From contig OZ076409.1 of the NCBI GenBank assembly GCA_964187785.1, positions 56,236,001-56,296,000 of the forward strand: a stretch of DNA of 60,000 nucleotides. Reading direction: 5' to 3'. Below the pieces are notes generated by a model, which worked only from the letters and a program-made list of their open reading frames with translations, was not told the DNA's origin and ran no database searches. The position numbers and the translations under genes are program-made. Numbering within the stretch: the first letter of the stretch is position 1; every line of letters starts with the position of its first letter. Shown piece by piece: positions 2,963-51,576 of this stretch. The DNA is from Amphiscolops sp. MND2022. Taxonomy: Eukaryota.

Positions 2963-5900
2963 CTAGAGTTGTTGTGTCTCAGGGCCTGATATAGCTTGCG
3001 AGATATCTATAGAGAGTTTTCTAAGCTTGATTACTTCTCGGATCATGGTTCCATTGATTGATTTGACTCTTCCAACACGATTTATCTCATCATTACCAGA
3101 GTGAAGATCTACTACACGAGCCATTTTCCGGTGCAAAGGAGGCTGATTGTCTTCAGCAATCAAAACTAAGTCACCTATTGCCAATTCTTGACCGCTTGTG
3201 AGCGAGCCATCTTTTTTGGGTTTGTAGCGTAGCCAAGTAATCTTGATGCCAAGACTTCCAAAATGAGGATTCCAATTACTCCAAAAACTTTAATCTGACA
3301 TTGATATGTAAGTTTTCATCACTTTCACTTGCGTTCAGTGGAGGTAAATCGTCCCTACCTCGTCCCAGAATGAAGTGAGCTGGAATGAGCAACTGCAAAT
3401 TATTGGGCTCAGCGGACATTGCACTGAGAATTCCTTCCATTTGTATAACGAAAGAGTTCAATTCATCATGAGTCAAGATTTGCGTACCCTCACAACGCCC
3501 TAAGTGACGTTTCAATGACTTGATAGCAGCTTCCCAGAGTCCACCGATGCGCGGAGCTCTAAGTGGAATAGTATTCCATTCAATTCCACGACTATTAATG
3601 TAATTTTTCATTGAGTTTTCATTTTTGTCTTTACTGAAGAGACTTTGAACTCTCGCAATATCATTTCTGGCTCCAATAAAATTGGTACCATTGTCACTGA
3701 AGGTCTTTCCTGGTAGTCCACGCCTTGCAACGAATCGTTTCAAAGCTGCAAGAATCTTTGGTCAAATCAGTGACTAATTCAATGTGAACAGCCTTTCTGG
3801 AAAAACAGACGAAAACTGCAATCCATGTGTTGTTGTCTAGCTGAGAGATAATAGGTCCTGCCAATTCAATCCCAACATTAACGAAAGTTTAGTAGGCGTA
3901 AATTTCTCGGAAGGTGAGTCAGGCATAATTTGAGCTGAAATTTCACTGGATAATCGACTGCATTTGACACGTTTCCGGATAAATTTGTTCACAACAGTTT
4001 TACCTCGAACTATTCAGTATTCTGATCTGCTGGAGTTGAGCGTTAGCTGCCCCCCGCCATGAAGGGTAGCATCATGAAAATGTTGTGAAATCACTACTGG
4101 GAGATGAGAGTCAGGGTGGATGAGATGAGGAAATTTTCGATACTCGGCAAGTTAACTTTGTGATAATCTACCGAAAACGCAGATTGTGCCAGTATGTCCA
4201 TCATAGAAAGAACATGAGTTGAGAGGCTGGTGTTTTCTGCTTACTTCCTGCCCAGCTTCCAAACGATTTTCTGTGAAGAACTCTTGTTTTTGAAATGAAA
4301 AGATGAGATACTTCGCTTTTGCGAGTCTTGAGGGACTGAGACTCATATGAGTATTGACCTTTTGAAGTAAGTCAATGTCTAGATGCACGTTTGCTGCTAC
4401 ACGAAAGACTTTCCCAAGAGTGCTGTATCGTTTAATGTCAAATGGAGGTTCCACGACGTGAGAGGCAATGACTGTAGTAGTGTTGGATTTCTGCTTTTGT
4501 TCTGTTTGAAAATTTTTTCGCATTTCATCATCGATCTTTGAAGATATTTGAGGCCAAGTAGCATGTGCAATAGCCAATTAGGACCGAACCACCAGAGACC
4601 ATGCTTGAGCAAGTCTTGGACTATCTATCCTCTTGATGCACAGTCTGTCGGGTTCAAACTGGAGGAAGAGTTTGCTGAATTTCGGACACTCTATTGGCGA
4701 CGAAACTGGTCCATATTCGTGGTAGCTGCGAAAACCAATGGAGAACTATCGTGGAATTAGTCCATCCGTAGATAGTTGGACTAGTCAGATTGACCTTGAC
4801 AAGTAGCTTGATTCCAAGATGGGCCGCAAAAAGTTCCAATCGAGGCAAAGACACTCTTTTGATGGGTGCAACCCGTGTCTTGTTTGCGACGAGTTTCGAG
4901 ACAATATGCCCGTCAACATCTGTTCTCCGTGCGTAGATAACAGCGGCATATGCCATTTCAGAGGCATCTGTAACCAAAAGAAGTTGAACATTGGCAATTT
5001 TCCCTTGAAGTGAAATACATCGCTGTAGCTTCGGTTCTGACAAATAGGGAAGTCATCTTCTATATATTCCCATTATTCCTGAATTTCTGTAGAAACTAGT
5101 TGGTCCCATTCATTACCTTGTGCCCAGAGTTTTTGAAGTAAGACCTTGACTCTGATTACAATGGGAGAATGCCAACCAACAGGATCAAAATGCTTAGCTG
5201 TTTCTGAGAGTAACTGTCGTTTTGTCACGTTTCCTTGAACTGTCAAGTTTGATTAGAAACCGAAGTGATCTGAGATGGGTTTCCCAGACACACCCAGCGT
5301 TTTTAATATTTTGTAGTTGTTATTCACGAATTTTCATTTGTTTATACTTTTCCGTAAAGGACAATGTGATTTCACGATGACTAGACGCCCATTTCCGTAG
5401 CTCAAATCCATAATTGTTAAGAACTGCGCAAATGTCATTTACTTTCGTTTTGGCATCTTCAACTGATTCAGCACCAGATAAGTAGTCATCAACGTAGAAA
5501 TAATTTTTTATTGATTGAGCAAGTGCTTGGTCTTTACACAGATGGGCGACTTCTACCAGGACTTTATATCACTTCGAATTGAATGAAATCCCGAGGAAGC
5601 AATTCCATAAGTAACACGAGTCATTCGAAACTGCTTGATGAAGTCTGTGTTTGAATCTCGCCATAAAAGTCTGCGCAAATCTTTTACAGCTGGATCTAAT
5701 GCAAAATGTTGGTACATTTTTGCGATATCTCCGTTAGAGCAACCTTATGCAACCGAAAGCGAACAAGAATTGAGAACAAATCTTGTTGTACTGTTGGTCC
5801 TATCATGAGAGAACCATTGAGTGAATTGCCATTACTGGATTTGGCAGATCCATCTAATACCACACGGAACTTTGTGGTAGATGAATCCTCCTTGTGAACA

Positions 5901-6137
5901 CAATGATGCGGCAAGAAGTTCAATTGATGATCAGGTTTTGCAATTTCATTGTCATGTACAGGTTCCAGATGATTGAGATCATTGAATTCGTGAATGAAAT
6001 CTGTGTATCGTTTTTTAAGAATAGGGTTTAAATCCAGACGCTTTTCAAGATTTAGAAAACGACGTTTCGCTTGAGTAAAAGTATCTCCCAATGGTGATTT
6101 GTCAGGTTTGAAAGGTATACCAACATGAAATCTTTTA
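2963..6137 (-). pseudogene. pol: Bel-Pao pol remnant (RT, Pao RNase H, integrase, C-terminal DUF5641-like region), many frameshifts and stops
   Basis: FLPHHCVHKEDSSTTKFRVVLDGS; FYVDDYL (~5480-5500); TDASEMAYAAVIY; SLPRLEL; SDNGTNF...GGLWEAAIKSLK; GDLVLIAED. Confidence 0.9.
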
Positions 6138-6728
6138 TCTTCTGTCATGAACGTGACGGGCAGATTGTCCACCCGATCGGTATCCATCATGTTGTTCATT
6201 TCTACAGTCGGCCTTAGCACTTGGAATTCGCTGTTCCTCGGCATTTGCTTCCGGTCTCTCGACTGGGACTTCCCATCCCCCTCTGGTCTCTCGGCCTGAT
6301 CCGGCCATTATGACATTCTGTATTTGAGGCAATACTTGACTACTAATAGCTTCATTAATGGCCCTTTGGATCAGCGTATCAACATTACTCATCATTTCAT
6401 CCATCTCACGGGATATCCTAGAGTTCAATTCGCTAGACAACCTATTTATCTCAGCTAGTGAGTTTGCTTCAGCCGAGTTTTGGCCAAGATCGGCACTTGT
6501 CCTAGGTTCATCATTTCTACAATTTGAAAACATGCTTTCGCCCTCGTTGTCTAAGTTATTACTCATGATACTTTCTCTCCTTCTAACGGAGTTACTTTCT
6601 AAACTCCTTTCTCTTTCAGTTCCCTTGTAACGATCGCCTCCTAACATTATATCTAAATTTTCGATATCAGAAAGGATCTCTAGTCCTCTGGACTTTCTAG
6701 CCTTCTTTTGTTTTCTTGTAGTAGGCAT
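6135..6728 (-). other. LTR-borne duplicate of the gag N-terminus (~195 aa), stopping in flanking DNA
   Basis: MPTTRKQKKARKSRG... matches the first ~195 aa of the ORF at 19462-20997 except for two substitutions. Confidence 0.9.
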
Positions 6729-7870
6729 AAGGAAAACTTCGAGTATAAAATTGAATTAGATTATATCTCGAAAATAACAGTGAAACCGTTTGTACTAATA
6801 TGATAGTCTTTTTCAGAAGAGAGCAAATTAAGAAGTGTCTCCTCTCTCAAAGGCACGGGTATTTATACCCCTGAAAGGGTGACACTCTCATTCTTTACAT
6901 TCCTTGACTAAGACAATATCATATGACTGCATTTTTGATGGTCACGGGATGAACGCTATCCATTCCAAATATTATACATCAAAGGAACAATCATTCAACC
7001 GTTAGCATCGTTTACATATTTGGCGAAATATTTTCATTGAACAGGTATTTGTTGATGTAAGTGCACATACTTTAGCACGTGGCAGCACAACAAATATGTT
7101 TAGTCTAAATACCTTTCACGGGTACAATGGCAAAAGGCCTAATAAGGCAACAATATCAAATTTCATGCAACAGCTATTTTAGAACAAATTGGATAACTAT
7201 TTGTTAATGGTACAACAGAACATCAATTAACACTTCAGATTGGTATTTCATGATCAACAAAGCTAACTATTAACTAAATATCATTACATGAAATTAGCAT
7301 CAATCATAAGTGCTTTGTTTATGGCGGACTGAATAGCCGGATTAGGCCGGTTGCCTGAACGGCATTAATAGCACTTTCGTTCGGTTTGTACAAAGGCCGT
7401 AATTGGCAAAAGAGAATAAAGCACACGAAAATGAAGGCCTCTGATTGGCTAATTGGGTGAGCGCAAGCGGCGTTGGCAAGAAAGTACAGGAGTCCATTTG
7501 AACTCGTTTCCGTACTTTCTCTTAGTTGCTTGCTATAATCTTTGATTATTACTACATTGCATTGATAATACAACAATACAGCACAATCTATGTTAACAGA
7601 CTAATATACAGTTAACATTCAAGACTAAGGTTGATCATAAGTAATCAACAAGTGCGATAATTCTAAGTTTTGGTAACAAGGGAATACGTCCCAGTACGGC
7701 CCTTTTTGGCTATTTTCTAAAATAATATGGCAACAAAATACATAAGCAACGTAAAAGTTTAAGAGAAAGTTTTAGTTTACTTTAATAGATAGGGAGGGTT
7801 CCTGGGGCCACATCCTGGCCAACAGCTGTTGTTGTAATCCTTGTGCCGTCACAGGCGGCAGCCTGCGACA
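6143..7870 (-). repeat. 3' LTR of Gypsy element B (1728 bp)
   Basis: Near-identical to 20412-22139. I noticed only four substitutions by eye (~6166, ~6533, ~7797, ~7813). Confidence 0.97.
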
Positions 7871-8552
7871 CAGCGGGTGCAATGAAAAGAAGACTGCCTG
7901 CATTAAGACCATTGATGTAGGCTTCTTTCCTGAGAGCCGTGATGTAAGCGGGTTCGCTCCTTGGAGTTGAGACTTCCATATATCTGTTTATCTTTATGGA
8001 TTTTATTTCGTCCACAGATTTTCCACAAACCATACAGCTTGTGCACCTTTGGGAGCTGATATCAGTGTAAGGCAACGCATTTTGTATGTGGAAAGAAGCA
8101 TGGAATCCACTACTTTCGGGTTGTATCACCGGCGTATCCATAGACGGCCCTCTCTCATGAGCGGGGGGCGAAAGCGGCGACTCTAACACAGGCAAAATCG
8201 TCTTGCATAATTCTATTCTCCTCTTCGTGTTGCCTCTAGACGGAGCATAGCATAGTTCCTCGTCGAAGTAGGTTTTGTCCAGTTTCGGTGTAGTTTGCGC
8301 GTCTGAAGGCACAAAGCTAGGACCAGGTTCGTCGCTCGCCGTCGTCATCCTTCTGCCGGCTATGGTAATTGGCTCAGCCTGGACTTGAGTTTCAATCCTC
8401 CTCACCATCTCTTCTGTGTCCGTAGACCAGTCTGAGTCCCATCCGTCAGAGGTTTCTTCATCACTGCTGATGTAGATTACAGAGTCTCTCGATGAGTCAG
8501 AGCTGAATTCCAAAGAACCAAAGAGTTTTCTCGCTTTATTGAATCTTTCCAT
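7782..8552 (-). CDS. Accessory ORF of element B, 256 aa, unknown function (acidic/Ser-rich N-terminus, CxxCxxC motif); ends inside the 3' LTR
   Basis: Intact ATG-to-stop ORF containing CTSCMVCGKS. The last ~29 codons lie within the LTR. The junction peptide resembles the one at element D's 3' LTR border. Confidence 0.7.
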   Translation of the reverse strand: MERFNKARKLFGSLEFSSDSSRDSVIYISSDEETSDGWDSDWSTDTEEMVRRIETQVQAEPITIAGRRMTTASDEPGPSFVPSDAQTTPKLDKTYFDEELCYAPSRGNTKRRIELCKTILPVLESPLSPPAHERGPSMDTPVIQPESSGFHASFHIQNALPYTDISSQRCTSCMVCGKSVDEIKSIKINRYMEVSTPRSEPAYITALRKEAYINGLNAGSLLFIAPAVSQAAACDGTRITTTAVGQDVAPGTLPIY

Positions 8553-9595
8553 TATTAGTTTTTTCGCAATTTTGGGGATTTGCTAGTCAACTTGTCGTGA
8601 GCGAGTTTGAAATCAGAATGAGCTTGTTGCCTCCTCAAATTCCGAGTTAGGCCTTTTCCCGAAGTTTCCAATTTAGCGGGAGAATCTCAGGTTGATTGCC
8701 CCGATTCTTCGTAAACATTCCTGAAAGAAATTCCTAAACGGGGTTGGCGGCCCCGATTAAGTAGGTGTTTGCCCTTCATACGAGCCATCATCAAAGTGGG
8801 TGTAAGCAGCACTTAATTTGTTGATATCAAATATCTTTTCTTTAAGTGGGTAATTAACGGCTTGCTTCGGATCAATTAATAACACGCGCCGCTAAATTCT
8901 TTCAACATGGCTTCAGCCAATCAGAGTTAAGCTCTGATAAAATGAAAAATTAAATAATAAAATGGCGAAAATAAAAAATCTGAATAATTCAAAATGGCGG
9001 ATTTTTAACTAGCGGTAACTGAGTTAACTGAACTAAATAATAAAGTGCAACAGGTCAAACGGCCGGAATCGGCAACTAACTAAGTAAGCTGTAAATAACA
9101 AAGTTCTTTGTACATTTCGCTGGCAGACTCCATGTACATAATAAATATGTAAATAACTAAATAATATTAGTCTGATAAACTTCCTTCAGCCACGAACTCC
9201 AACTTCTAATTCCATTAACCCATTTTAATTCCAATTCAATTCCAATTATTTTACTTTGTCTTCTTCGTCTGATATCCATTACCGGACAATTTTCTCCACT
9301 CTTCTTAATCTCTTCAACAGCGTCCTTCTTCCTCTTTGAAGTATTCCCGAGACCTGTCCTTGGTCCGAGTTCGGCCAGATTCCACACCTTCTGAGCTTGA
9401 TTGGTTCGACAGTAAAAGGCAAAGCAGGACGGAATGTCTTCAGTTGAAGGTTGGTTTGCTTTGGTTTTGAACTTAATTTACTTGATCAGGGCTAAATTTG
9501 TTCACAAGATGCTTCCTGTATCCATCAGTAAACACGTGATAACACGTTTTGTTCAATTTTTCAAAGTACTTCCGGAAGTTTTCTAATGCGGTAGA
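8553..9595. promoter_or_regulatory. Candidate internal bidirectional promoter between the divergent accessory genes
   Basis: Head-to-head ORF starts. AGCCAATCAG (~8916), TGATTGGTT (~9399) and two AAAATGGCG (YY1-like) motifs (~8959, ~8991). Confidence 0.4.
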
Positions 9596-12500
9596 ATGGA
9601 TTTCTTTCAAGGAAGCTTACCGCCAAATTTCATCTCCTTCTGTTTAGAACAACAGAACGTCGACGAACCACAAATTCAAAGCATTTCCACAACTGGTAAT
9701 TCCACTGCGCTTCCTCAACGTCCTTTACCCATCTCAATGCCCAGCAGTACGCCTTCTCCACCTCCGTTTCCCCCAATAAGAACATTCCTCGGCCAAGCGC
9801 AACAGTTGACTGCTGACTCTCCCTTTAGCAATGAAAGTAACGTTGATGTCACAGCGTATGCAGACGAGATGGTCCAACGTATGGAAGTCTCACAGGGGTT
9901 GACTGACACAAATCCTGCCGGCCCTAGGGAAGAAGAGCCGTCTCCGGCACAAGGCCCAGTTGTCCCAGACGTGGGTCACGTCCTTATTCAAGTGAGAACT
10001 AGCACCCCAACACCCTCAGAGCAGCCTGGAACAGAAGTTACCAGCATTTCACAACTTGAGTCCTCACTGTCAGTAGCGCCGCAGTCGCAGTCTGGTTTCC
10101 CTGAGCTGCAACTTGCCCAGAATCGTAGTCACGATACATCTGCAGTTTCTTTCCTGCAGTCAGATGATGAAGCCTCATCTTCTGTCCATGAGCCTCCTCC
10201 ACTCCCCGGCGGAACAGGACATTTCACCGCTCCAGGGGACCACAATGACACCACCCAGGCTGTTGATACTACCAGTCAGTCTGAAATTCCCCTCTTGTAC
10301 GCGAGCATCCCTTTCGGAACGGGGTCAACATCAGAGGCTCAAGAAGATTCAGGATCGGAAATACACGATCCAGGACCACCAGGGACTTCTCGGTTTAATC
10401 CTCAGCCACAAGAAGAAGTTCTGCGAGATTTGTCAGGACGCAGCAGAGCCACTCTCAAACAGTATTTTGAGGCCGAAGACCCTTACACGTTCCCGGTTGG
10501 ACAGAGGTTTGTAGCCTTCACAGAGCCGCAGGTCTATCACCTGCTTCGGGTTCTCACTGACGAGGCCATCAATATGACTTGTATCACCATGGAGAGAATG
10601 GTAATTGGAGCAGTAAAAGGAACTCCCGTGACTGCCCCTTCACGGACTGAGAAGTTCCGGACGCGAACCCGAGCTCCTTCCCCAGGATCCAATCGCCAAG
10701 CTGGGTCCAGCTCCGACGAGCTTTCTGTCGATCTTGGTTCTCAGCCCAGTCCACAACTTGACCTGAGCACACTCCAGGATGTCAGTGGTCTCTCCTATCT
10801 CGAAGATAGTGACAGTTCCATGGAAAGGCTCTTGATTGACAGAGTTTATAATAAACCTGCTCCTGAAAATCTCTCTACAGCCTCACAACCAGGGCTGTCA
10901 CACAACACGACTGAGGGAGAGACTGAATTCCAGGAGAAGAGCAGCCTGGACTGTACTTTGTCTGAGCTTCGCGGTCAATCTCCTACCCAGAAGTCCCGTC
11001 AGGCAGTTGTCTCAGCCAGGAAAAGCAAGAGCAAGAGGATGCCAAGGCGGGGTGTGCCTATGCGTGAGGAGTTCTTCTCCAAGATAGCATGGACAAGATC
11101 CTTCATTTCTGGCCCAGCAGACCCGCTACATAACCCTTACATGGTGTGGTGCCACATGTGCAAGAAAAATTTTAGCATAAAGACTAAAGGCACTGTGGAA
11201 ATCTTGCGTCACCACAGGACTGAGAAACACCTTCGCCGAGACCAGAGGTGGCGGTTCGAGCACCTCAAGACAGTTGATGACGTGACAGGGAAAGTCCAGC
11301 ACAGAGTTCGAGGAAGGGATGGCAAAGTCCTCAATAAATCCGACCTTGCGCAAGAGCTTCCCAAATTCATCCACACAGAACTTGTTGACGTTGGCGAGAG
11401 ACATCCTTTTTACGAGGATTACTTGAAAGGACACTCTTCGGCTCCTGTAACACCTCAATCGCGATTGCAGGCCCAGATTTGCCTCTTGGGAGATTTCGTC
11501 CAGGACTCAGGCAACATAGCTATCCTCCGCAGGTTGTGGGCTAGAGCAGGGAGCTATACTGGATTCCAATCAGTCTTCCATGATTTTGACTGGAGCGAAG
11601 ACCACATCATGGTAAGTTCACTCGTTTGTTTCATCATAGAACCATTCGTAGCGTAAGGGTAGCTTGTAATGGTAAAGCCGTATGGTCATCCGAGTTTCGT
11701 TCCGTTTCAGGCCATTTTCCAACACGTCTTCAACTGCATGATGGAAGACGTGGCAGAGCAAGTCATCGCTTCCCAACACTATGGGATTGAGTTCGAGAAG
11801 AGAGGGGCCAATCGCTTGATGTATATCCGATTTTGGAAGGGTGCAAAGCTTTGTCGCATCTTCGTCTGTCGAAGTGGACTTTCTGGCGTCGGGCTCACTG
11901 AGGAGATGGGCTCCCTATCACGATTGTTGTCTGCCATTTCTACCGCTCCCGATGTGGTCGCGATATCTGGATGTGCCGTTGACCTGATAAGGACAGTGGA
12001 CCAGCATCCCTCTTACCCACGTGGGATCCAAAGTTGCTTCCGGTTTGAGTCGCTCGACTTGAGGACCTTGATGCACAAGGTAAACTACAGCGTCTTCGGG
12101 CACATAGACATGTTCTCTGTCCTTCAATGTCTTCTGGTCTCGCTTGGAGGTTGCTTATCTGAGGACTGGGTCACCGATTCGACTGAACTTGTCCGAGTAA
12201 GTCTATTTTGCAAATTTGTTCTGCATAATATTGGTGAAGGGCGGAGGTAGTCACTGACAGTTAGGGCTCCCATTTTTAAATCGTTTTGTTTAGGCTATCA
12301 CAACTTGCACACTGGAAATAACCAAAATACCTGATTTGTGCCGCGATCTGTTGAAGAAGTGGAAGTCGATCCTGCGCTACTTCACTGTGCATTCACGCCG
12401 ACAAGAGAATCAAGGGGTCCATAACAAGGTTGTAATTCACAAAATCATCTGTCCTTTTAGACAGAGTTCTAGTGAACGTTCCTTTTCATAAGCATAGGCA

Positions 12501-13856
12501 GGGTTATCGTTTCAAATTTACATCATACCTTTCCACAGGTCCAGAGCTTCGAGTGGTCCCTGATCATGGACAATTTCTTCACTGTCAAACTGGAGCTGTT
12601 CCAACGCCTGGTCAGCGATTGTGAGTATTTCTAGTTTGGTAGGGTCACTTTGGTCTGCCGTCCTTTTAGGGACCTTCAGATTCTGTGTTTTAGATGTCAC
12701 TAGTTTCGCCATCAATTTGGGTCAGAGGCGAGATGCTACCTTCTTCCTTTGTGGAGAGATGTGCAAGTACATCAATCGTCTTTGCTTCCGCATCTACCAG
12801 CCTGACACTGTGCCTCTGGAAAGCGCTTGGTTCCTGTTGATGGACTTCCGAATCAGTCAGGGCAAGCCCATGAGTGATGAAGATTTCCTGGTACGGCTCA
12901 AGATTGTCAGTAAAGTGACCAGTGCAAGCAACTTGAAGGCAGCGGGGCTTCATTTCAACAAGAAATCTAGTAAGGCAGCGATCGACAAGACTGCTGAAAG
13001 CGCAAAATCAGACTTTGTGAAGAGTGCGAGGGAGTTCATCAAGTTCTTGTTGTCCGGAGTACTCCAACACTCCGAGCTCGGATCTGACCTCATCAAAGGA
13101 CTGGCTGCGTTTGATCCGCATATCCTCTTCAGGAGGCCCGTAGAAATTGCTTTGCGGCATTTTGACCGTCTGTATTCCACTTTCCAACTGCGTTCCTGGG
13201 TTTCAGCGTCCAATGAGTCAGTTTGCCGGGACGAGTACGTTGCCCTATTGGAATACCTACGAGCCAACCATTCTTCTGAGTTCGGCTCCTCCTGCGATCC
13301 TCCTGATCTCATTGACTTCTTCATGGGATTGGAGTTCCTCCACACACATGAGCATCTCTGTTATCTGTTCAAACTGAGTTGCCTCTGTATCACTTCTGTG
13401 AGTCCCGAGTATCCTCCTGTTTCTTTGGGCAAGATTGACACAAAGGGGCTTCAGTCTCGTTTAGCGGACGTCATCTTGCCTTGTCAAAGTTATCTGTCAA
13501 CAGTGCCTGATTCTCTGGTTGCCTGCTGTTCTGAGTCTCGTCTCGAGAAATTCTTCGAATTGTCTTCGACGTTTGGACAGACTGCCTTCACTGCCGATTA
13601 CGACCCGTGGACCTTTGTAGACAGCTTCGGCCGTTCAGCAATTTACAAGACTCTCGTCACTTCTTATCGCTCTGTTCTCGCCGGGTCAGAATTCCATTTT
13701 AGAAGTCCTACTTTCGCTGATACTTCTTCTGTGTCTGATGCTCCTGCTGTGAGGCCACCCAGTGATAGTAAGCGGAGGCGGATGGAAAAGAGTTGTTCCC
13801 GGGGTAGAGCTTCGTCTGTCCTTGGTGAATCTTCTGCTGGTGGTTCTAAGAGCTAA
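9596..13856 (+). CDS. Spliced antisense gene of element B: BED-like zinc finger plus degenerate hAT-transposase-like protein, ~1293 aa. Exons 9596-11611, 11711-12196, 12294-12428, 12539-12620, 12694-13856
   Basis: Four GT-AG introns (GTAAGT..TTTCAG, GTAAGT..TTTAG, GTTGTA..CCACAG, GTGAGT..TTTTAG) with matching phases 0,0,0,1 join into one 3882-nt open frame. Motifs include WCHMCKKNFSI...ILRHHRTEKH, DLLKKWKSILRYF, LAAFDP and LCYLFKLSCLCITS. Confidence 0.8.
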
Positions 13857-14082
13857 TTGTACATATGTATTTATGTACTTGCAGACTGTAAACTTTGTTG
13901 ATTTTCTGTTTATTATTTATTTCATTTTGTTGCTCTCGATTTTTCTGATCCCGTATTTATTTTCTTTGTAAGGGATCGTCCGAGTGTCCCATTATTTATT
14001 CAAATGATACTAGAGGGACTGGAAAAAAAACGGAAAAAAAGATAATAAGAAAGAACTCCCATTTTCGGGAAGAATTCAATCT

Positions 14083-17000
14083 TTAGTATCTGAAGTCTTC
14101 TGAGTAGTTTGGGTTAGGGTTAGGCCTGAGATTATATTTCCCTCCTCTAGGGCTCAGACTTTCATTTCTAGCATCGCTTTCGGATATTTCGGGCACGATA
14201 ATATCATCCCCCCTTTTTGGAGAGTTTTGTGCATCGTTTTCATTCGTCAAGTTTCTTTCTGAAAAAATTTCATCATTTTCCGGTCCACCTGCCGTACCCG
14301 GCAAAGAATTTTCTTGGTTTTTTGGGGAAACGGCCGGATTCGGCCAATCAGATTTGGTATTTTCTGTCACTGCAGTAGCTTTATTTCTTTCAGTGACGTC
14401 ATCATCTAAGCGTTTATTCCGGCTGTGTGCCGCGTTGTCGTTGTTTAATTCTTCTCGCGTGATTATGTAATCCGCTTCGGTCTCGTCTACGTCATTTGCA
14501 TTCGTTTCCGCCGTGTTCGGCTGTTCGCCATTCGGCACGCTAGTTGGAATAGTCTCGCTGCCTCGTGTAACTAGTTGCTCTCCAAAATCTGTTTCCCACG
14601 CTATGACGTATAGGTCGTCTTGCGGAATGACAATTTCTTCGTCTGGCTGCAGACGTTGTTCTCGGAAATTGTCCTCAAGCGGTTGATTGGGAATAAACCT
14701 TTTAAGGCGAATGCGATGCAAAATTTGAGTTTTGTTCGTATTGATTCTTCGTACTATGTAGTTTTCATTTGGCAAAACCTTTTGGACTACAAATGGTCCA
14801 ACCCAACGATAATCGCGGAATGGAATTTTTGATCCTTGATGATCCGCTTTCGGCTGTAAGACGAAACAGTAATCATTCTCCTTCAATGGAGCAGCTTTTG
14901 CTTTGCGATTGTAGTATTCTTTGTATTTAATATACGACTGCATAATGTTCTGTTTCGTCTTGTCAATCAAGGTTTTCGTCCGATTTTGGATTTCCTCGGC
15001 GAATTCAGTTGTAGGGCTGATCTTTTCGTTTGGATTATTTCCAAGCTTGTGATCCAAGATATTGTAGGGAATTCTGCCATGGAATACCCTTGTTGGCTCA
15101 CAACCGATGCTGGCGTGATAACTAGTATTATGATTGAGTACTGCTAATGGCAAGTATTTATGCCATTGTCGGCGGTATTCCCCACATGCCATTTTGAGAT
15201 TTGTCTTTAATGAGGCATGGGTCCGCTCTAATTTCCCAATTGTTTGCGGGTGCTTTGTCGTTGCACATTTGAGTGTAATGCCCAAAATTTGCGTAACCTC
15301 CGCAATAATCGTAGAAGTGAATGCAGTACCCTTATCAGTAATAAGAGTCGTTGGCAGATATGCATGTTTGGTCATTATGTCAATGAGCGCCTTTGCCACA
15401 TTGATTGCTGATGCGTCTGTAAGGGGGTAAGCGAACAAATATCTGGAGAAAACATCAATTGCCGTTAGAACGTTTTCGTACCCTCCACTTGGGGGAAGAT
15501 TCGGCAATAGGTCAATCTGCATGGCGTCTTCAGGTCCAAGGTCCCATTCGGGCAAGTTGAGCAGCTCAGGTGTGATCGTTGCGTTAGGGACTCTTTTGTC
15601 TCTGGCACATTGTTCACACCCTTCTACCCACTTTTTGACGTGTTTAGCCATGCTAGGGTAGTAATACCTTTGTCTAATTTCCTGCAACATTTTTGAAATC
15701 CCGGGATGTTTATGCGCTGTCCCATGAAGGGAGCGAAGCAATTCCCGAAGTAGGTGTTGCGGGAGTAAAATTTGATGGTATTTAACATTCCCTGTTTCAT
15801 CAAAATATTGCCTCGTCAGGATTTCGTCCTTTAGTACAATTCGTTCCAGATTGTTTGCGTAATGTCTATATCGGGCATCTTGGTGCACTATGTTTTCTGA
15901 ATAATCTTCATGAAGGAGCTTTGCCTTCAATTGTTGCAATACTGCATCCTTGGACTGCTCGATGATTATCTGGTTTGTTTTCTTTAATCGGACTTGGATG
16001 TCTGGTTGTTGTTTGACCAGATTGGTTGACAGAGTTTCTATGGTAACAGTGGGCTCATCAGTCATTGGATTTTTCCTGATTGCTTCTTTTCTTGCCCAAT
16101 ACTGTTCCTCTGTCTCGTCATCATCATTCGTATAGAATATTTGTTCTTCCTGTGATACTCCCGCAGATTGAACATTTATCTCAATGGGTAAAGTCTGCAC
16201 GTCCTCACGGATCTTCATGATTAATTTATCCTTCGGGTCTGCCTCCAATCGGGACAAATAGTCAGCTGCTGTGTTCTGTGCTCCCGGAATATGCGCTATG
16301 ACAAAATTGAACTGAATCACATAATCGCATGCATTCCACAGGGCTGGGGGTATTATTTTCGTTTGGAAAAATCTCGTAACGGCTTTGTTGTCGGTAAGGA
16401 TAATGACCGGTTTGGGCGCACCCCAGAATATATGTCCAAATTCTTTGAATGCAAAGTAAATTGCCAGAAATTCCTTGGCATATATTGACATTTTGATCTG
16501 GGCTGGGGTGAAGGTTTTTGATCCATAGGCCACCGGTGCGTAGGATTTTCGGAGAGATGTGAATTTCTGGTTTGGATCGTCTTCTATTAAGACCGCATAT
16601 CCAGCTGCACCAAAACTTGCATCAGTCATTAGTGCGATTTGTTTGTTCGGGATAGGCTGTTGTAGGGCCAAATCGCAACATTTGTCGAGTGCCTTGTTGA
16701 TTTCTTCGAATTGTTGGACTAATTCTTTCGATACTAGGACCTTTTCGTCACTTTTGAGCATCTTGTAGAATGGAGCAAGGCGTTCAGAGAGTCTTGGGAC
16801 ATAATTCCTGTAGTAGTTCAAGAATCCCAAGTAGCGCTGCAAAGCCTTTTTCGACTTTGGGAATTTGGTCTTTTCCAGAAGGTTTTGCACGTTCTGTTTC
16901 TGGGGTTTGACGCCTTGCGGGGTAATAGTCCGTCCGAGAAAATCAATTTCTTTTGCACCAAAGTGACATTTGTGCATTGTCAACTTAAGGCCTGCTTCCT

Positions 17001-19287
17001 GAATGCATTTGAATGTTGCTCTCAGGTTCATTATGAGGTGGTGAACATCATTGGCTGCGATGCCGATATCGTCCACATACTGGGCGCACTGATCCGCTTT
17101 AATGACTTTGTCGAGGTATTCCCTCATGAAACTCGAGAATGCGGATAGTGACCGACTAAGGCCTTGTGCCAAGCGTCTGTACGCGAATGTACGACTGGCA
17201 AAATTGAAAGCTAACATTTCGATCGAGCGTTGGTCGGCCATTGGTAGGCAGTGGTATGCCTGCGAACAGTCTAATTTACAGAACAGTTTTTTGCCTGCCA
17301 AGTGTTGGGCAGCATCAACCAAGGTGCTAACAGGGTGATTATTGTTGATATAATCATCCGAGATGAGGTTGTTGATTTTTCTCAAGTCAACCAAAAGTCG
17401 TAGCTTCCCATTTAGTTTCTTTTGGGCGAATATTGGGCTTGCATACTTCGAGAACGGTAGTGTGGTTATTATGCCATATTTGTGCAACATGGCTAATTCG
17501 ACTAGGATGTCCTCCTTCAAGTTGATAGGGGCTGGAAGACTTTGACTATAGGCTGGGGAATCGTCCTTAGGTGTCAGTTTCACTTTGAATTCCTCGTTCA
17601 TGCCTATATCAAATCGGTGTCGTGCAAAGATGTCATGGAATTCCACTAACAATTCCTCAATTTTCTCCTTCTCTTCAGGAGTAAGGGTGGAATCTTTCCA
17701 GTCAAAGTTTTTTAAGAATTTTGCACGCGATTCTGCGTCTGTGGTGGGGTCGAGTGTCTCCAGGTCCTGTAAGGCCTGTAACTCGCGTAGGATTCGTTTT
17801 TGTATGGGTGTGTGTTCCTCAGGATTTCCAGGGTTTTCTGGAGTTGGGAACCAATAATTTTCGGAGTTTTGTGGATTTCTATTGGTTTTGATGAGACTGC
17901 TGACATAATGGGCTGCTTGCTCCTGGTCATTCTGCAAAAGGTGCCAGGTTGATGCCGGGTCTACCGGTTTGACATACTTCATTTGTTCTGGCGTCATGAC
18001 AGAGAAATTGGCAATATGTAGTCCCTTTTTGAGTTTATAAGGGTGGTCTGTGAAGTTGCTCATTGGTATCGATATATTGCCGTCATTCAGAGTGACCAAG
18101 GCTGGGCAGAATGTGATGTCGCCTTCTTCATGTAGAAGGTCGCTCGGTTGTAAAATTCCAGTGACAGCATTCTCAGGGTACAGTAGGGAATTGGTCCTAA
18201 TTAGGACTCTATCATTTGGCGGAATGGTTATCTCAATGGGATTGAGAATCGGTTCTAAGACATTTGAGTATTTATGGTCAGCTGTTTTGAGCTGCATTGA
18301 GAAGAACGGGAAGTTCAGTATTCCTTGTCTCATGTCCAGGACTGTATGATTTCGTTGAAGGAACATTAGGCCGATAATCGGACCTGTCAGGTGTTCCATG
18401 ACTATAAAAATCTCATGAAACTCAATGTCACTAACTTCAAATTTGAGCTCTATGGTACTCTTAGGAGTTTCCAATTGCCCGTTAGCAACCATTATTTGGA
18501 AATTTGGAGGCGGACCTTCCCGGATGACAGATTGTGGAGATAGAAGTCGAATTTTCCGGAGGTCCATTTCAGGAATTGCACTGGACAGCGCTCCAGTGTC
18601 AATAAGTCCGTCTATGGTCAATTCCCCAAAGTCCATGGGGAAGTACAACATGCGTTTTTTGCATTTGAGATTGATGTTGGTTGACAGGGGTATACAGTCT
18701 GGTTCACCATATCTGGTGATGAGTACATTTTGGAATTGTTTTTCATCTAATAATGATTGTGGCGTGATTTCACCACTGTTTTCAGTATTCTCGGTCCCCA
18801 GGGGATTTGGGAACACCGGATGGCTTGTGCCATCATTCATTTGCCAGGTTTCAATCAATGCTCTAGTTTTCTTGTTGTGGGTGATTGGAGGATTTTCATG
18901 GGCTGATTTATTGTAGAGTTCGATATCATCAATGACGTATTGGAATTGTAGCAGATCTTGGTTGTAGAGTTCCGTGTCCCAATAGGGATCTCGTCCATAA
19001 TCGGGGTCTATGTAGGTAGGGTTGTAATCGTCTACCAAGGGAATGGGCCTGAATCGGCTATTGAAAGCAGATGTGTAATCAGGATCCCATACAGGAATTG
19101 GGTTTTGGAACAAATGGGTATTATTGTAAGTAATAATGCTAGCTTTTTCCATCTGCTGCTGCCAGACAACAGAAGGATAGCCCATCAATTGTTGATTGTA
19201 TTGGTGGAAAGTTTGCGTTGGAGGGTCCGATCTGATGTATTGTCGGACAGATATTAGTTGATTGTATTGGAGTCGTGGCGAAGTTAG
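14083..19287 (-). CDS. pol: Gypsy Pol polyprotein (aspartic protease, RT, RNase H, integrase), reached by -1 frameshift
   Basis: 1701-aa ORF at 14083-19188, open upstream to the slippery site. LIDTGAL; KLDCSQAY...QYVDDI; MTDASF; HGTAHKHPG...CEQC; QIDLL...TDKG...LER. Confidence 0.97.
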   Translation of the reverse strand, partial: LTSPRLQYNQLISVRQYIRSDPPTQTFHQYNQQLMGYPSVVWQQQMEKASIITYNNTHLFQNPIPVWDPDYTSAFNSRFRPIPLVDDYNPTYIDPDYGRDPYWDTELYNQDLLQFQYVIDDIELYNKSAHENPPITHNKKTRALIETWQMNDGTSHPVFPNPLGTENTENSGEITPQSLLDEKQFQNVLITRYGEPDCIPLSTNINLKCKKRMLYFPMDFGELTIDGLIDTGALSSAIPEMDLRKIRLLSPQSVIREGPPPNFQIMVANGQLETPKSTIELKFEVSDIEFHEIFIVMEHLTGPIIGLMFLQRNHTVLDMRQGILNFPFFSMQLKTADHKYSNVLEPILNPIEITIPPNDRVLIRTNSLLYPENAVTGILQPSDLLHEEGDITFCPALVTLNDGNISIPMSNFTDHPYKLKKGLHIANFSVMTPEQMKYVKPVDPASTWHLLQNDQEQAAHYVSSLIKTNRNPQNSENYWFPTPENPGNPEEHTPIQKRILRELQALQDLETLDPTTDAESRAKFLKNFDWKDSTLTPEEKEKIEELLVEFHDIFARHRFDIGMNEEFKVKLTPKDDSPAYSQSLPAPINLKEDILVELAMLHKYGIITTLPFSKYASPIFAQKKLNGKLRLLVDLRKINNLISDDYINNNHPVSTLVDAAQHLAGKKLFCKLDCSQAYHCLPMADQRSIEMLAFNFASRTFAYRRLAQGLSRSLSAFSSFMREYLDKVIKADQCAQYVDDIGIAANDVHHLIMNLRATFKCIQEAGLKLTMHKCHFGAKEIDFLGRTITPQGVKPQKQNVQNLLEKTKFPKSKKALQRYLGFLNYYRNYVPRLSERLAPFYKMLKSDEKVLVSKELVQQFEEINKALDKCCDLALQQPIPNKQIALMTDASFGAAGYAVLIEDDPNQKFTSLRKSYAPVAYGSKTFTPAQIKMSIYAKEFLAIYFAFKEFGHIFWGAPKPVIILTDNKAVTRFFQTKIIPPALWNACDYVIQFNFVIAHIPGAQNTAADYLSRLEADPKDKLIMKIREDVQTLPIEINVQSAGVSQEEQIFYTNDDDETEEQYWARKEAIRKNPMTDEPTVTIETLSTNLVKQQPDIQVRLKKTNQIIIEQSKDAVLQQLKAKLLHEDYSENIVHQDARYRHYANNLERIVLKDEILTRQYFDETGNVKYHQILLPQHLLRELLRSLHGTAHKHPGISKMLQEIRQRYYYPSMAKHVKKWVEGCEQCARDKRVPNATITPELLNLPEWDLGPEDAMQIDLLPNLPPSGGYENVLTAIDVFSRYLFAYPLTDASAINVAKALIDIMTKHAYLPTTLITDKGTAFTSTIIAEVTQILGITLKCATTKHPQTIGKLERTHASLKTNLKMACGEYRRQWHKYLPLAVLNHNTSYHASIGCEPTRVFHGRIPYNILDHKLGNNPNEKISPTTEFAEEIQNRTKTLIDKTKQNIMQSYIKYKEYYNRKAKAAPLKENDYCFVLQPKADHQGSKIPFRDYRWVGPFVVQKVLPNENYIVRRINTNKTQILHRIRLKRFIPNQPLEDNFREQRLQPDEEIVIPQDDLYVIAWETDFGEQLVTRGSETIPTSVPNGEQPNTAETNANDVDETEADYIITREELNNDNAAHSRNKRLDDDVTERNKATAVTENTKSDWPNPAVSPKNQENSLPGTAGGPENDEIFSERNLTNENDAQNSPKRGDDIIVPEISESDARNESLSPRGGKYNLRPNPNPNYSEDFRY

Positions 19288-20997
19288 TTTTTTGACTCAT
19301 CATTGGAAGATGAGGCCTGTGAGTTGGAAGATGTTGATTTGTTTTGTGGTTTCTGCGCTTTTGAATTGGGTTTACCGTCATTAGCGTCATCTGGTCTGGT
19401 GCGTTTGGGTTTGAGATGCGCACCAGCACCTTGCCAACATCTTTCTTCCGGGTGGTTCTTTTTACCACAAGTGCCACACTCCGGATACGTCTTTTTCTGA
19501 GTTTGTTCGCCTTGTTGGGCATCTTTTTCTTTTTTTCTTCTTCAATTTTTCACAGTCTTTGACCATATGGCCCTTCTCCTTGCAGTAGTTGCAAGTGATG
19601 TCCGACATTTGCCCAGTAGTTAGAGGAGTCTTGGATTTTGTTGTCGAGGAGGTCATTGTGGCCATTGGTAGGTCGTCTGATTCGTCAAGGGCATTTAGTT
19701 CTAATTCTCTCTCTAAATGAGCAACTATTTCGTCATAAGAGCCGTTTTCGAGTCTGGCCATGTTTACAGACCGCTTCAGTTTTGGTGGCAGTTTTGCGTA
19801 GAGCAAACTGTCAATCATTTTCTGCGCGTGATCCCCGAATGCTTTTTCTGCCCCTTGATTTAATTCTTCAAGGAAATCTGGCAGTTTCATCGTGTTGGGA
19901 TCGAAGACTAGACGGTGCCATTTATGTTTGGCAGTTGCTTGTGATTCAGGTTTGACGTATTTTCGTCTGAATATTACCAATACGTCCTCTAAAGTCTGTC
20001 TATTGCTCGAGCTGATGTTGCGGAAGGTTTGGAGAGCATTCTTCCTCAGCAGTGAGTGGAAGTGATTTATTTTCATCTGTTCCGTCATTTCCGGTTGCAT
20101 CTTGATCATCGTGTGGAACAGGTCCTCAAACAGCTCGAATTTTTCACTCTTGCCATCAAAGGTCATTGTGTTTGAATTGACTGGGCGTATAGTGAGTTGT
20201 TGGGCTGTCGGACTATTCTGCATCGTTGTCAAGACATCTGCTAGTCGAGTAATAGGGTCGGTTTGAGCAGCCGGAGCATTTCTCTCTTGCGCTGGGATCG
20301 TCGTGTCAAGGTTGATGTCTTCATAGGACCTGTCGAGATGGTTTCTGGATGAGACTCGTCCCGTGAGAAACTCGGGAACTTGAAGTGGAGATTCGTTGTC
20401 TCCTGTCACCATGTCATGAACGTGACGGGCAGATGGTCCACCCGATCGGTATCCATCATGTTGTTCATTTCTACAGTCGGCCTTAGCACTTGGAATTCGC
20501 TGTTCCTCGGCATTTGCTTCCGGTCTCTCGACTGGGACTTCCCATCCCCCTCTGGTCTCTCGGCCTGATCCGGCCATTATGACATTCTGTATTTGAGGCA
20601 ATACTTGACTACTAATAGCTTCATTAATGGCCCTTTGGATCAGCGTATCAACATTACTCATCATTTCATCCATCTCACGGGATATCCTAGAGTTCAATTC
20701 GCTAGACAACCTATTTATCTCAGCTAGTGAGTTTGCTTCAGCCGAGTTTTGGCCAAGATCGGCACTTGTCCTAGGTTCATCATTTCTACAATTTGAAAAC
20801 AGGCTTTCGCCCTCGTTGTCTAAGTTATTACTCATGATACTTTCTCTCCTTCTAACGGAGTTACTTTCTAAACTCCTTTCTCTTTCAGTTCCCTTGTAAC
20901 GATCGCCTCCTAACATTATATCTAAATTTTCGATATCAGAAAGGATCTCTAGTCCTCTGGACTTTCTAGCCTTCTTTTGTTTTCTTGTAGTAGGCAT
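19284..20997 (-). CDS. gag: Gypsy Gag (~570 aa after removing one A from the A7 run at 19530-19536), with two CCHC zinc knuckles
   Basis: Capsid-like TFDGKSEKFELFEDLF; CNYCKEKGHMVKDC. The second knuckle CGTCGKKNHPEERC appears only after a 1-nt correction. Confidence 0.9.
19287..19293 (-). other. -1 ribosomal frameshift heptamer A AAA AAC directly before the gag stop
   Basis: Minus strand reads TCA AAA AAC TAA. The -1 frame (CTA ACT TCG...) is open and in phase with pol. Confidence 0.8.
20400..20411 (-). promoter_or_regulatory. Primer-binding site TGGTGACAGGAG of element B
   Basis: Directly follows the CA end of the 5' LTR and starts with TGG (complement of tRNA CCA). The tRNA identity is not established. 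Confidence 0.85.
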
Positions 20998-22139
20998 AAG
21001 GAAAACTTCGAGTATAAAATTGAATTAGATTATATCTCGAAAATAACAGTGAAACCGTTTGTACTAATATGATAGTCTTTTTCAGAAGAGAGCAAATTAA
21101 GAAGTGTCTCCTCTCTCAAAGGCACGGGTATTTATACCCCTGAAAGGGTGACACTCTCATTCTTTACATTCCTTGACTAAGACAATATCATATGACTGCA
21201 TTTTTGATGGTCACGGGATGAACGCTATCCATTCCAAATATTATACATCAAAGGAACAATCATTCAACCGTTAGCATCGTTTACATATTTGGCGAAATAT
21301 TTTCATTGAACAGGTATTTGTTGATGTAAGTGCACATACTTTAGCACGTGGCAGCACAACAAATATGTTTAGTCTAAATACCTTTCACGGGTACAATGGC
21401 AAAAGGCCTAATAAGGCAACAATATCAAATTTCATGCAACAGCTATTTTAGAACAAATTGGATAACTATTTGTTAATGGTACAACAGAACATCAATTAAC
21501 ACTTCAGATTGGTATTTCATGATCAACAAAGCTAACTATTAACTAAATATCATTACATGAAATTAGCATCAATCATAAGTGCTTTGTTTATGGCGGACTG
21601 AATAGCCGGATTAGGCCGGTTGCCTGAACGGCATTAATAGCACTTTCGTTCGGTTTGTACAAAGGCCGTAATTGGCAAAAGAGAATAAAGCACACGAAAA
21701 TGAAGGCCTCTGATTGGCTAATTGGGTGAGCGCAAGCGGCGTTGGCAAGAAAGTACAGGAGTCCATTTGAACTCGTTTCCGTACTTTCTCTTAGTTGCTT
21801 GCTATAATCTTTGATTATTACTACATTGCATTGATAATACAACAATACAGCACAATCTATGTTAACAGACTAATATACAGTTAACATTCAAGACTAAGGT
21901 TGATCATAAGTAATCAACAAGTGCGATAATTCTAAGTTTTGGTAACAAGGGAATACGTCCCAGTACGGCCCTTTTTGGCTATTTTCTAAAATAATATGGC
22001 AACAAAATACATAAGCAACGTAAAAGTTTAAGAGAAAGTTTTAGTTTACTTTAATAGATAGGGAGAGTTCCTGGGGCCACAACCTGGCCAACAGCTGTTG
22101 TTGTAATCCTTGTGCCGTCACAGGCGGCAGCCTGCGACA
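20412..22139 (-). repeat. 5' LTR of Gypsy element B (1728 bp)
   Basis: Repeat of 6143-7870, followed by the PBS. Contains the gag ATG at 20997. Confidence 0.97.
21129..21136 (-). promoter_or_regulatory. Candidate TATA box (TATAAATA) in the element B LTR
   Basis: Lies ~130 bp upstream of the gag ATG; copy at 6860-6867. Upstream CCAAT-like motif at ~21712. Confidence 0.55.
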
Positions 22140-22144
22140 TCTTC

Positions 22145-24070
22145 GATGTAAGTAGTTTCTTTGCAGTGCTTTTCACAAGCAATTATTTCATGGCTGTACC
22201 TTTTTGCTTCTGGAACTTTCTCAAGCTCCCAAAATTGTTTTAGGTTGAAGGAGTTGGTGATACAAAGTGAAGTGGTGACGACATTTGATTGATAATCTCT
22301 TGTAACACCAGAAGCTGTCCAGCTGATTAAAGTGTTTCTGAAACGGAGACTATTGTCTTCCTGAAATTTTCCTTCAAGGAAAATCTGCTGTGCAACATCA
22401 GAGCCCAAAAACTTTTCCGCGTTTCTGGGTTTATTGAATTCAGGGTTTGCTAAATTTACCGATCTCAGATGGGAACCTTCGGCGATGCTAAAATCGCGTT
22501 CAGGTAAAACTGGGGTAAGGTTGGGTCAGACATATGCATATACGTTAATGACACTATGCCCAGAAACTGGTTTCAATCGTAAACTAACACTACTGGAACG
22601 ATAAGGCTTTGAAACATTTCCAATTCCATTGATGGTAAGTGTCTGTATATGACGCTTCAAAATATCCGCTGCACTGCGGACTCTGAAATCAAACTGATCT
22701 GTGATCCTATGTCGATCATGGCTCGGCACATGGTGATTCTTGAAGAACCATCTTTAACGGGAACCATTGCGGTAGGAACGATGCCAGAGGCATTTCAGTA
22801 GTGGCCTGGTTTGTGGTAAGTGAGCCAGAAACAGCTCCTTTTGGTGCATCATGTAAGTGTAACAACGTGTTGGGTTTCGAAAGGCATGTTTTGCAAGTGT
22901 GTTTCGACTTGCATTCCTTAGTGATATGACTAGAATTCAGACAATTGAAACATAATTTCAACGTCCAAACGAGATTTTTTTGGTCCTTGAGACTCATATC
23001 AGTGAACTTTTTGCAAGTATAAACTCTATGATTTTCCGAACAACAAGGACACTTTTCAACACTAGACTTGTAGTTTTGAGTGTTTTGTGAATTCTTTTGA
23101 GAATTACCTTTATGACATGGACCTTCCGAAGCTTTGTGAGTTGACCTTGTAGACAATTCAAGAGCTTGAGATCTTCTGCCAATAAAATCTCGTAATCGCT
23201 TCAGGTTTTGTGGTTTTGGTCCCAAAGTAGTCGTTTTCCCGAAGAGCTCTCGAAGCTTGATCCAATCATTCGTGCCCAAATGAAATCTTCTAATTTATCT
23301 CCGAGTTTCAGAGCTTTGACTCCCATCAGAGTTTCTCCAAAGGTGACAACCAGTTTGCGTAACTCAGATGCAGAATCGCCTTTCATCGGCTTCAAGTCAA
23401 AGATAACAACTAAATGACTGTTGAGAATCAATCTAGGGTTGTTATAACGGTAAACAGGCGACTTCAAAGCAATTGGATACTTCGAGTTTTATATCGGCAG
23501 GTGAGTCACTAATTGAAGAGCTTCGTCAGTAAGTGAGGCTTGTAGATAAATAAATATTTGTTTTGCTGGAATGTTGGGATTGCTATCGACTGATGCCATA
23601 AATTGCTCATAAAAGGGAATCCACTTCTTGTATTCGCCGTTGAATTTAGGCAAATCGAATTTGGGCATCTTAATATGATTGCTGTGACTATTCGATGTGA
23701 CGTATGTTGATTCTTGAAGTGCTGCCAGCGATGAATCAGTTCCTGCGAATTGTCCCAGAATGCGACTGACTTCTTCAAGACGGGTACCACTTCTTCGTTC
23801 AGCATTTTCTGCATCTTCAAGCTCCCTTTCCAATTCGGCATCATTGTCTGGTGTTACGTCAACAAGTGCAGCATTGAGATGAGCAATTTCTTAAACCTTG
23901 ATTTCAAGCTTTTTCTTCCAGTAATTCAGCATATCAATGTCTTCATCTAACCGATTACTCTTCCTTTTTTCGTAAGAGGTTGGGCTTCGTTGCTAATTTT
24001 GGTGATCACAACAAGCAAAGCAGATCTTGACCGCTTCAATTGGTCAAATGTTTTGTCGGCGTACCTTGCA
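22145..24070 (-). pseudogene. gag: Bel-Pao gag/protease remnant of element A
   Basis: KMPKFDLPKFNGEYKKWIPFYEQF (DUF1759-like). CPCCSENH...LCFNCLNSSH...CKTC...NTLLH triple zinc-knuckle region. Confidence 0.88.
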
Positions 24071-24122: not shown

Positions 24123-24476
24123 TGTTGTTCCGTGAGTTGTAAATTAGAATCAATCTAATTTGTTGCAATTTGTGAATTAGAATCAATCTAATTTGTTTAA
24201 TGTTCAAATTAGAATCAACCTCTTTTATGTTTAAATTAGAGTCAATCTGTTTTGTTGAAAAGTGGGAGAGCAAGTTAAATTTTTAACTCGACACATTTTT
24301 ACTAAAGTGACAGAAAATTGTGGGAAATCAGAACAAAGTATAAACAAATTACGTTAGCAATGACGTGTACAATTTTGCATGTGAGTGTTATTTAGCAAGA
24401 CTAGTTTGAGGTTTGAATGCTTAGAAAATTTTACGTTTTGATTCCATCTTTTGCTTGATTTAGTTCTGCTTCAACT
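24123..24476 (-). repeat. 5' LTR of Bel-Pao element A
   Basis: Diverged copy of 975-1295 with extra internal repeat units, adjacent to the PBS-like motif. Confidence 0.88.
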
Positions 24477-27400: not shown

Positions 27401-27913
27401 AAGCTACTTCGTTTTTTTTTCGTTGGTCAAAGCTTCTTCCAGGTCAATATAAGGTAGGGCAAGGGTTTTTTTAAAGTTTTGCTTTTTAAAGATTCAGGTG
27501 CAGTCAATAGAGAGGTCTAAGTGTGCTTCGGTTTCTTCGGAAGCCTTTTTCTTCTGCTGCTAGTAGAGTATTTGTCTCAAGGTGGCTCTTCACACGCGTA
27601 CAAAACATCCGTTTGAAGGGTTTTTAGCTTGAACAGTCGTCGTATTTTGCTTTATTGGGTTTGCGGATGAATATCACTCGTGGTTGGGTCCTTAGCCAAA
27701 CCGCTTTGTTCCAACATTTATTGAAGAATTCCAGAAGAAAGGTCCTGGCGTAGTCGCCAAGTTTCTTCACCATCTGGATATGGAATCCTTCGGGGTCAAA
27801 GGAATTTGTGCTAGGACATTGCTTCGATGAGTCATTCAGCTCTTCTGAAGAGAAAACTTCTTGGAAAATTTCCATATAGTGCTCTCCAATCTCTTCGGGT
27901 TGTTGAAGGAAAG

Positions 27914-33950: not shown

Positions 33951-34216
33951 TGGTGAGTGACAGGAGTTTAGGACCCTTGAACAAATGTACCCAAGAGAAC
34001 CTCAGCACAAACCACCGTCCAAACATCGTCCCTCCACATTGTGGATGCTCTTCGCCCCGGAAATGAAAACAAACCTACACCAACCCAACGCCAAATTGTC
34101 AAAGAAATTTCGCGAATTCGTCGACCGTGAGAATCTTGACCCAAGACGCAGTTCCACCAAAATGAAGGCTCCTACGTAAATGGCAATTGTAATCCACCAT
34201 AGTCGAGTACAATGAC

Positions 34217-51550: not shown

Positions 51551-51576
51551 AGAATTACACAGAAACAGAAACAGAA

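What the first reader, a model, noticed from the sequence alone, without database searches (positions are those of the whole stretch)
6143..22139. 16-kb, four-gene Gypsy with virus-like complex organisation, recently inserted
Seen: LTR(gag start)-gag-pol, then a convergent spliced gene, a divergent 256-aa ORF, and the LTR. About 6.2 kb lies between pol and the 3' LTR, with no env-like signal peptide or transmembrane anchor. The LTRs differ at only about four noticed positions and all ORFs are open apart from one homopolymer indel. Inference: this is a potentially active, possibly undescribed lineage with at least three transcription units.
Basis: partly seen in the sequence, partly recalled or inferred. 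Interest (0 to 1): 0.7.

Follow-up and report, generated by a model that had tools for sequence, protein, structure and literature searches.

The report
Retrotransposon carrying spliced antisense passenger gene
A young 16-kb Gypsy retrotransposon from a large family carries two extra genes, one a backwards five-exon gene that looks like a disarmed DNA-transposon enzyme, and it has a conserved hairpin where the usual second-strand priming signal should be.

The parts
20412..22139 (-). 5' LTR, 1,728 nt; TATAAA at 21136 and the first 195 gag codons lie inside it
6143..7870 (-). 3' LTR, 4 substitutions from the 5' LTR; encodes the last 29 residues and stop of ORF3
22140..22144 (.). target-site duplication TCTTC (other copy 6138-6142), inside a decayed BEL/Pao element
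20400..20411 (-). primer-binding-site-like TGGTGACAGGAG, no gap after the LTR; matching tRNA not identified
19284..20997 (-). gag (DUF1759 E 1.1e-5; zf-CCHC E 0.0012, below cut-off); frame broken in an A-rich run at 19543-19522, second knuckle in another frame
19287..19293 (-). AAAAAAC heptamer in register just before the gag-frame stop; candidate -1 frameshift into pol; only a weak downstream stem
   Evidence: heptamer type recalled
14083..19296 (-). pol, 1,737 aa open: protease, RT (YVDD), RNase H, integrase; best solved relative Ty3 Gag-Pol (E 4.9e-47)
13857..14082 (.). 226-nt AT-rich gap between the converging stops; four AATAAA on the element strand (13909-14000)
9596..13856 (+). gene A: antisense, exons 9596-11611, 11711-12196, 12294-12428, 12539-12620, 12694-13856; 1,293 aa; CxxC...HxxxxH finger, helical C-terminal domain; hAT-transposase-like without catalytic motifs
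8553..9595 (.). 1,043-nt spacer between the divergent genes, presumed internal promoter region; holds an unverified 106-codon minus-strand frame (9477-9157)
7782..8552 (-). ORF3, 256 aa: acidic, mostly disordered N-terminal half, CxxC plus helical hairpin, end encoded in the 3' LTR
7844..7893 (-). LTR left edge: pyrimidine-rich tract (TCTTC 23 nt before the edge, no polypurine tract), then a hairpin with a 4-nt loop; 28 nt identical in L001

Best explanation
A recently inserted member of a large, diverse Ty3/gypsy family that carries two accessory genes as a stable part of its genome. Shown: the anatomy, the conserved reading frames, the conserved splice donor, the missing polypurine tract and the conserved LTR-edge hairpin. 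Inferred: (1) full-length RNA starts after the TATA box in the 5' LTR, and Pol is made by a -1 frameshift from gag. (2) Gene A is read from an internal promoter on the opposite strand, so its four introns are invisible to the spliceosome on the packaged RNA and survive every round of reverse transcription. (3) Gene A descends from a hAT DNA transposase that kept its zinc finger and helical/oligomerisation part and lost the cutting residues; it most likely works as a nuclear DNA-binding regulator for the element (transactivator or anti-silencing factor), as proposed for plant Retand/Grande antisense genes. (4) ORF3 is a second, partly disordered regulator whose end is fixed in the LTR. (5) Plus-strand synthesis is primed by a non-purine RNA segment, bounded by the TCTTC box and the hairpin at the LTR edge. 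My odds: family-borne cargo 0.85, hAT origin 0.7, DNA-binding regulator 0.45, structure-guided priming 0.35.
Against: No sister copy could be read as DNA across the block. Pairing clusters by shared contig length gave r = -0.19 for the 5 divergent pairs (91 of 120 permutations as good); the overall r = 0.51 (p 0.03) rests on one near-identical pair, and another pair is discordant, 96% against 69%. Member counts are database sequences and may span several assemblies. The hAT evidence is below threshold: Atlas recognition 1,877 (under 2,300) with 145-146 shared features; Hermes ranks 19th at a Z that is common by chance; Foldseek found nothing at E <= 0.001; 0 of 100 last-exon homologues match Dimer_Tnp_hAT, and 1 of 49 matches zf-BED, at E 0.11. 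A loose inverted similarity does flank gene A (score 62, reached by 1 of 200 shuffles). The hairpin folds equally well on both strands, so it may be a DNA site. No expression data. The frameshift site has no strong nearby stem.
Confidence: 0.65

Rival explanations
1. Gene A is a separate non-autonomous hAT-type DNA transposon (or other repeat) nested between pol and ORF3 in this copy or subfamily, and is not cargo of the retrotransposon family.
For: hAT-like leads. Loose inverted similarity between 13857-14005 and the spacer, reached by 1 of 200 shuffles. Nested insertion is common in this window. The contig-length pairing did not show co-transmission.
Against: No terminal inverted repeat with an 8-bp duplication. 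No conserved catalytic acidic residue, yet frames stay open at 50-98% identity. Family size and identity tiers mirror the LTR-linked ORF3. The stop lies only 226 nt from the pol stop.
Confidence: 0.12
2. The architecture is as described, but gene A is not transposase-derived: it is a lineage-specific zinc-finger protein or a captured host or viral gene, with a structural or host-manipulating role.
For: No Pfam, PDB-sequence or Foldseek match passes threshold. The long N-terminal half is low-complexity and unlike Hermes.
Against: Two different methods point at hAT for the same region. Finger, then alternating strand/helix-like exon 2, then a helical C-terminus is the hAT domain order (recalled). 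ORF3's best Pfam lead, Spin-doc finger in 17 of 63 homologues (E 0.0052), is also a hAT-associated finger (recalled).
Confidence: 0.2
3. The LTR-edge motif has nothing to do with priming. It is an integrase attachment or protein-binding site, or a splice acceptor (pyrimidine tract then CAG at LTR positions 6-8), and plus-strand priming uses an unrecognised purine tract.
For: Equal folding energy on both strands. A 10-nt purine run lies about 50 nt upstream, at 7931-7922. A pyrimidine tract with CAG is present in all three elements.
Against: The LTR's left end is fixed by the plus-strand primer's 3' end (established mechanism; adjacency stated in PMC10085805), and the adjacent 15 nt are purine-poor in 3 of 3 elements. 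The second element keeps a stem with a 4-nt loop but a different sequence.
Confidence: 0.45

Closest known systems
Retand lineage and maize Grande (plant Ty3/gypsy; PMC11963269: abstract, background, part of methods, discussion and passages read)
   Same: pol-to-3'LTR region of 2,933-6,566 bp (6,212 here) with conserved antisense ORFs; TRP28 proteins predicted to bind DNA; Grande's protein is nuclear
   Different: Reported only in flowering plants; TRP28 has no similarity outside these elements and was not hit here; the word 'intron' does not occur in the paper; LTRs 315-1,194 bp against 1,728
Bdelloid rotifer LTR elements with non-env ORF3 (PMC5408684: abstract and passages)
   Same: Animal gypsy-like elements with extra ORFs after pol, treated as separate transcription units
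   Different: Their ORF3s are env, GDSL esterase or DEDDy exonuclease; no antisense gene appeared in the passages searched
Planarian Burro giant gypsy elements (review PMC6431247: passages)
   Same: Large, high-copy invertebrate gypsy elements with accessory functions
   Different: Over 30 kb, with extra domains fused into a roughly 4,900-aa polyprotein that has env homology; none of those domains was found here
Complex retroviruses: HTLV-1 hbz (antisense; named in PMC11963269), HIV nef, MMTV sag, foamy bel genes overlapping the 3' LTR (recalled)
   Same: An antisense regulator plus a sense accessory ORF running into U3
   Different: No env; pol is closest to Ty3 among solved structures; no sequence or fold link to viral accessory proteins
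hAT transposase Hermes and domesticated hAT proteins (FAM200/GTF2IRD2-like)
   Different: Below significance by every threshold; no conserved catalytic glutamate motif; no terminal repeats; carried inside a retrotransposon
Fission yeast Tf1/Tosmo plus-strand primer region (PMC10085805: passages)
   Same: A TCTT box upstream of the primer segment
   Different: There TCTT is followed by a polypurine tract; here the segment is purine-poor and followed by a hairpin

Membership tests
Ty3/gypsy LTR retrotransposon | Direct LTRs with TG...CA ends and a short target duplication | tested here: met
Ty3/gypsy LTR retrotransposon | pol order PR-RT-RH-IN with intact catalytic motifs | tested here: met
Ty3/gypsy LTR retrotransposon | Primer-binding site after the 5' LTR | tested here: inconclusive
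   TGG-starting site with no gap; no tRNA gene available to match
Ty3/gypsy LTR retrotransposon | Polypurine tract adjacent to the 3' LTR | tested here: not met
   5 of 15 purines; 6 and 7 of 15 in two relatives
Named gypsy clade (Mag, CsRN1, Tat/Retand and others) | RT phylogeny with named references | not testable with these tools
   No GyDB or Repbase reference set on hand; no RT relative found in viral contigs
Retand | Long pol-3'LTR region with an antisense ORF | tested here: met
   6,212 nt with gene A
Retand | TRP28 (PF04195) domain in the antisense ORF | tested here: not met
   No such hit for the exon ORFs or homologues
Env-bearing gypsy (errantivirus-like) | Third ORF with signal peptide and membrane anchor | tested here: not met
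   ORF3 acidic and disordered, hydropathy maximum 1.35; hydropathy only, no predictor run
hAT transposase | N-terminal BED zinc finger | tested here: inconclusive
   CxxC...HxxxxH conserved; zf-BED in 1 of 49 at E 0.11
hAT transposase | Helical insertion and C-terminal domain fold | tested here: inconclusive
hAT transposase | Catalytic D-D-E triad | tested here: not met
   No acidic residue above 45% in last-exon columns 230-250; exon 2 has E and G/S at the presumed aspartate sites in 3 to 4 sequences. Positions placed by recalled motifs
hAT transposon | Terminal inverted repeats with an 8-bp target duplication | tested here: not met

The most novel reading that the evidence does not exclude
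A whole animal gypsy lineage has replaced the polypurine tract with a structure-defined plus-strand primer (TCTTC box plus a hairpin at the U3 edge, embedded in an accessory ORF), and has domesticated an intron-containing DNA transposase as an antisense regulator or anti-silencing factor: one class of mobile element tamed by another.
Probability: 0.3. Interest if true: 0.82.

Novelty: new variant of a known kind. Interest (0 to 1): 0.62.

Why it matters
Antisense accessory genes of LTR retrotransposons are described in plants, and their origin and function are called unknown (PMC11963269). Here is a case of the same layout in an unrelated family, with a traceable candidate origin (a disarmed hAT transposase) and four retained introns, which show how a retrotransposon can carry a spliced gene. 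The polypurine tract is treated as a standard part of LTR replication; a recently mobile family of roughly a thousand or more sequences without one, with a conserved hairpin at the same spot, makes an alternative priming route directly testable. LTR finders that require a polypurine tract would miss such elements, and gene A would be mis-annotated as a large host gene family.

Full report
Observation. The element is as described. Two 1,728-nt LTRs (6143-7870, 20412-22139) differ at 4 positions with no indel, end in TG...CA and are flanked by TCTTC on both sides. The flanks belong to one decayed BEL/Pao element: Peptidase_A17, DUF5641 and DUF1759 are hit in 3 of the 7 flank frames scanned. The element runs on the minus strand. 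A TGG-starting primer site follows the 5' LTR directly. Gag begins at 20997, 195 codons inside the LTR, about 140 nt after a TATAAA. Its frame breaks in an A-rich run at 19543-19522, with a second zinc knuckle in another frame; mutation and assembly error cannot be told apart here. An AAAAAAC heptamer stands in register just before the gag-frame stop, the usual form of a -1 frameshift site (recalled), with only a weak stem downstream (z -2.3). Pol is open over 1,737 aa with PR, RT, RH and IN, and its best solved relative is Ty3.

Gene A. A plus-strand gene from 9596 to 13856 splices through four GT-AG introns of 99, 97, 110 and 73 nt into 1,293 codons without a stop; the introns are lower in GC than the exons. 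Homologues test this independently. Of 113 exon-1 homologues aligned at the exon end, 111 continue with V-S, V-G or V-R, the translation of a donor site, and 110 stop within 49 residues. Homologues that read through an intron match exon 2 at 80% and 59%, exon 4 at 61-72% and exon 3, but not the introns. The last acceptor has a second phase-compatible candidate at 12669. Because the gene is antisense to the packaged RNA, its introns would not be removed (inference).

ORF3 and family size. The 256-aa ORF (8552-7782) has 193 homologue clusters; the 120 listed sum to 1,728 members and 71 are full length. Its last 29 residues are LTR sequence and are strongly conserved, so ORF3 is tied to the LTR across the family. 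Exon 1 of gene A has 200 clusters; the 120 listed sum to 1,700 members. All 240 listed come from one source type and have no name or Pfam domain. The two sets have similar tiers: own subfamily 241 against 135 members, next tier 46 against 31. This suggests co-transmission but does not show it. A more direct proxy failed: 7 contig lengths are shared between the lists, yet distances do not correlate for the 5 divergent pairs (r -0.19, 91 of 120 permutations as good), and one close pair is discordant. Against a nested DNA transposon, no terminal repeat with an 8-bp duplication was found. A loose inverted similarity does exist (1 of 200 shuffles); it may equally be shared AT-rich end signals.

The LTR edge. 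No polypurine tract adjoins the 3' LTR: 5 of the last 15 nt are purines. One metagenome contig, L001 (1 of 171 pattern matches), encodes an ORF3 relative at 28% identity but shares an exact 28-nt stretch that starts at the LTR edge. All 9 codons there are identical, against 20 of 60 at identical residues elsewhere. The residues were selected by the search pattern; the silent positions were not. The stretch forms the most stable hairpin of 15,967 30-nt windows in the element and folds equally on both strands. A second, decayed element in the window (32363-37585; LTRs 1,588 nt with 27 differences; pol remnant 51% identical; related primer site) shows an ORF3-like frame in the same register, a different 7-bp stem with a 4-nt loop, and no purine tract. 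All three have TCTTC 23-24 nt before the edge. Fission yeast Tf elements have TCTT just upstream of their tract (PMC10085805, passages). The sample is three sequences, and L001's LTR edge is inferred from homology.

Mechanism. Shown: anatomy, conservation, splicing signals, missing tract. Inferred: LTR-driven genomic RNA with frameshifted Pol; an internal promoter region in the 1,043-nt spacer for gene A and ORF3; four AATAAA after the pol stop that may end a gag-pol message; gene A as a nuclear DNA-binding helper of the element; plus-strand priming by a non-purine segment bounded by the TCTTC box and the hairpin.

Comparison. Plant Retand/Grande elements have the same layout, with antisense ORFs of unknown origin and function (PMC11963269; abstract, background, part of methods, discussion and passages). 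Rotifer elements carry env, esterase or exonuclease ORF3s (PMC5408684; abstract and passages). Planarian Burro elements fuse extra domains into a polyprotein (PMC6431247; passages). PMC5718144, PMC6238403 and PMC12477816 (passages) added nothing specific. Ten searches found no LTR family with an antisense multi-intron transposase-like gene or without a polypurine tract. The library lacks most subscription papers, Repbase and GyDB, and no supplements were read. The host is unknown.

Verdict. Real and recently inserted; a new variant of Ty3/gypsy. Interest 0.62, rising to about 0.8 if linkage, hAT origin and non-purine priming hold.

Noticed in passing
window 32363-37585 (+): Decayed non-autonomous relative: 1,588-nt LTRs (27 differences), AAAAC duplication, related primer site, pol remnant, 54-nt tandem array at 34878-35288, and an extra partial copy of the LTR-edge motif at 35501-35544.
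   Followed up: partly
window 9477-9157 (-): 106-codon frame in the spacer, followed by an AT-rich tract like the one after gene A's stop; L001 63-89 weakly matches 9170-9143 (E 0.065). Possible small fifth gene or remnant; no clean start, no database match.
   Followed up: partly
window 6166, 6533, 7797, 7813 and their partners: All four LTR differences fall in the gag-coding or ORF3-coding parts of the LTR, none in the central 1 kb; three are transversions.
   Followed up: no
window 2963-6142 and 22140-23890 (-): Decayed BEL/Pao element split by the insertion; a diverged direct repeat at 975-1294 and 24123-24475 may be its LTRs.
   Followed up: partly
window 26769-28759 and 37825-41104: Two diverged duplicated blocks (about 89-90% identical) around the second LTR element, with ORFs at 26745-27311 and 39925-40938 that have no Pfam hit for the one scanned.
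   Followed up: no
window 51446-53979: Cluster of long inverted repeats (arms 54-135 nt, up to 96% complementary), MITE- or foldback-like.
   Followed up: no
window 42049-45714: GC-richer stretch with a diverged direct repeat (81%) and broken gag/pol-like frames on the minus strand; probably another old LTR element.
   Followed up: no
P0312: A homologue in which an exon-2-like segment is followed directly by a last-exon-like segment: an internally deleted copy of gene A.
   Followed up: no
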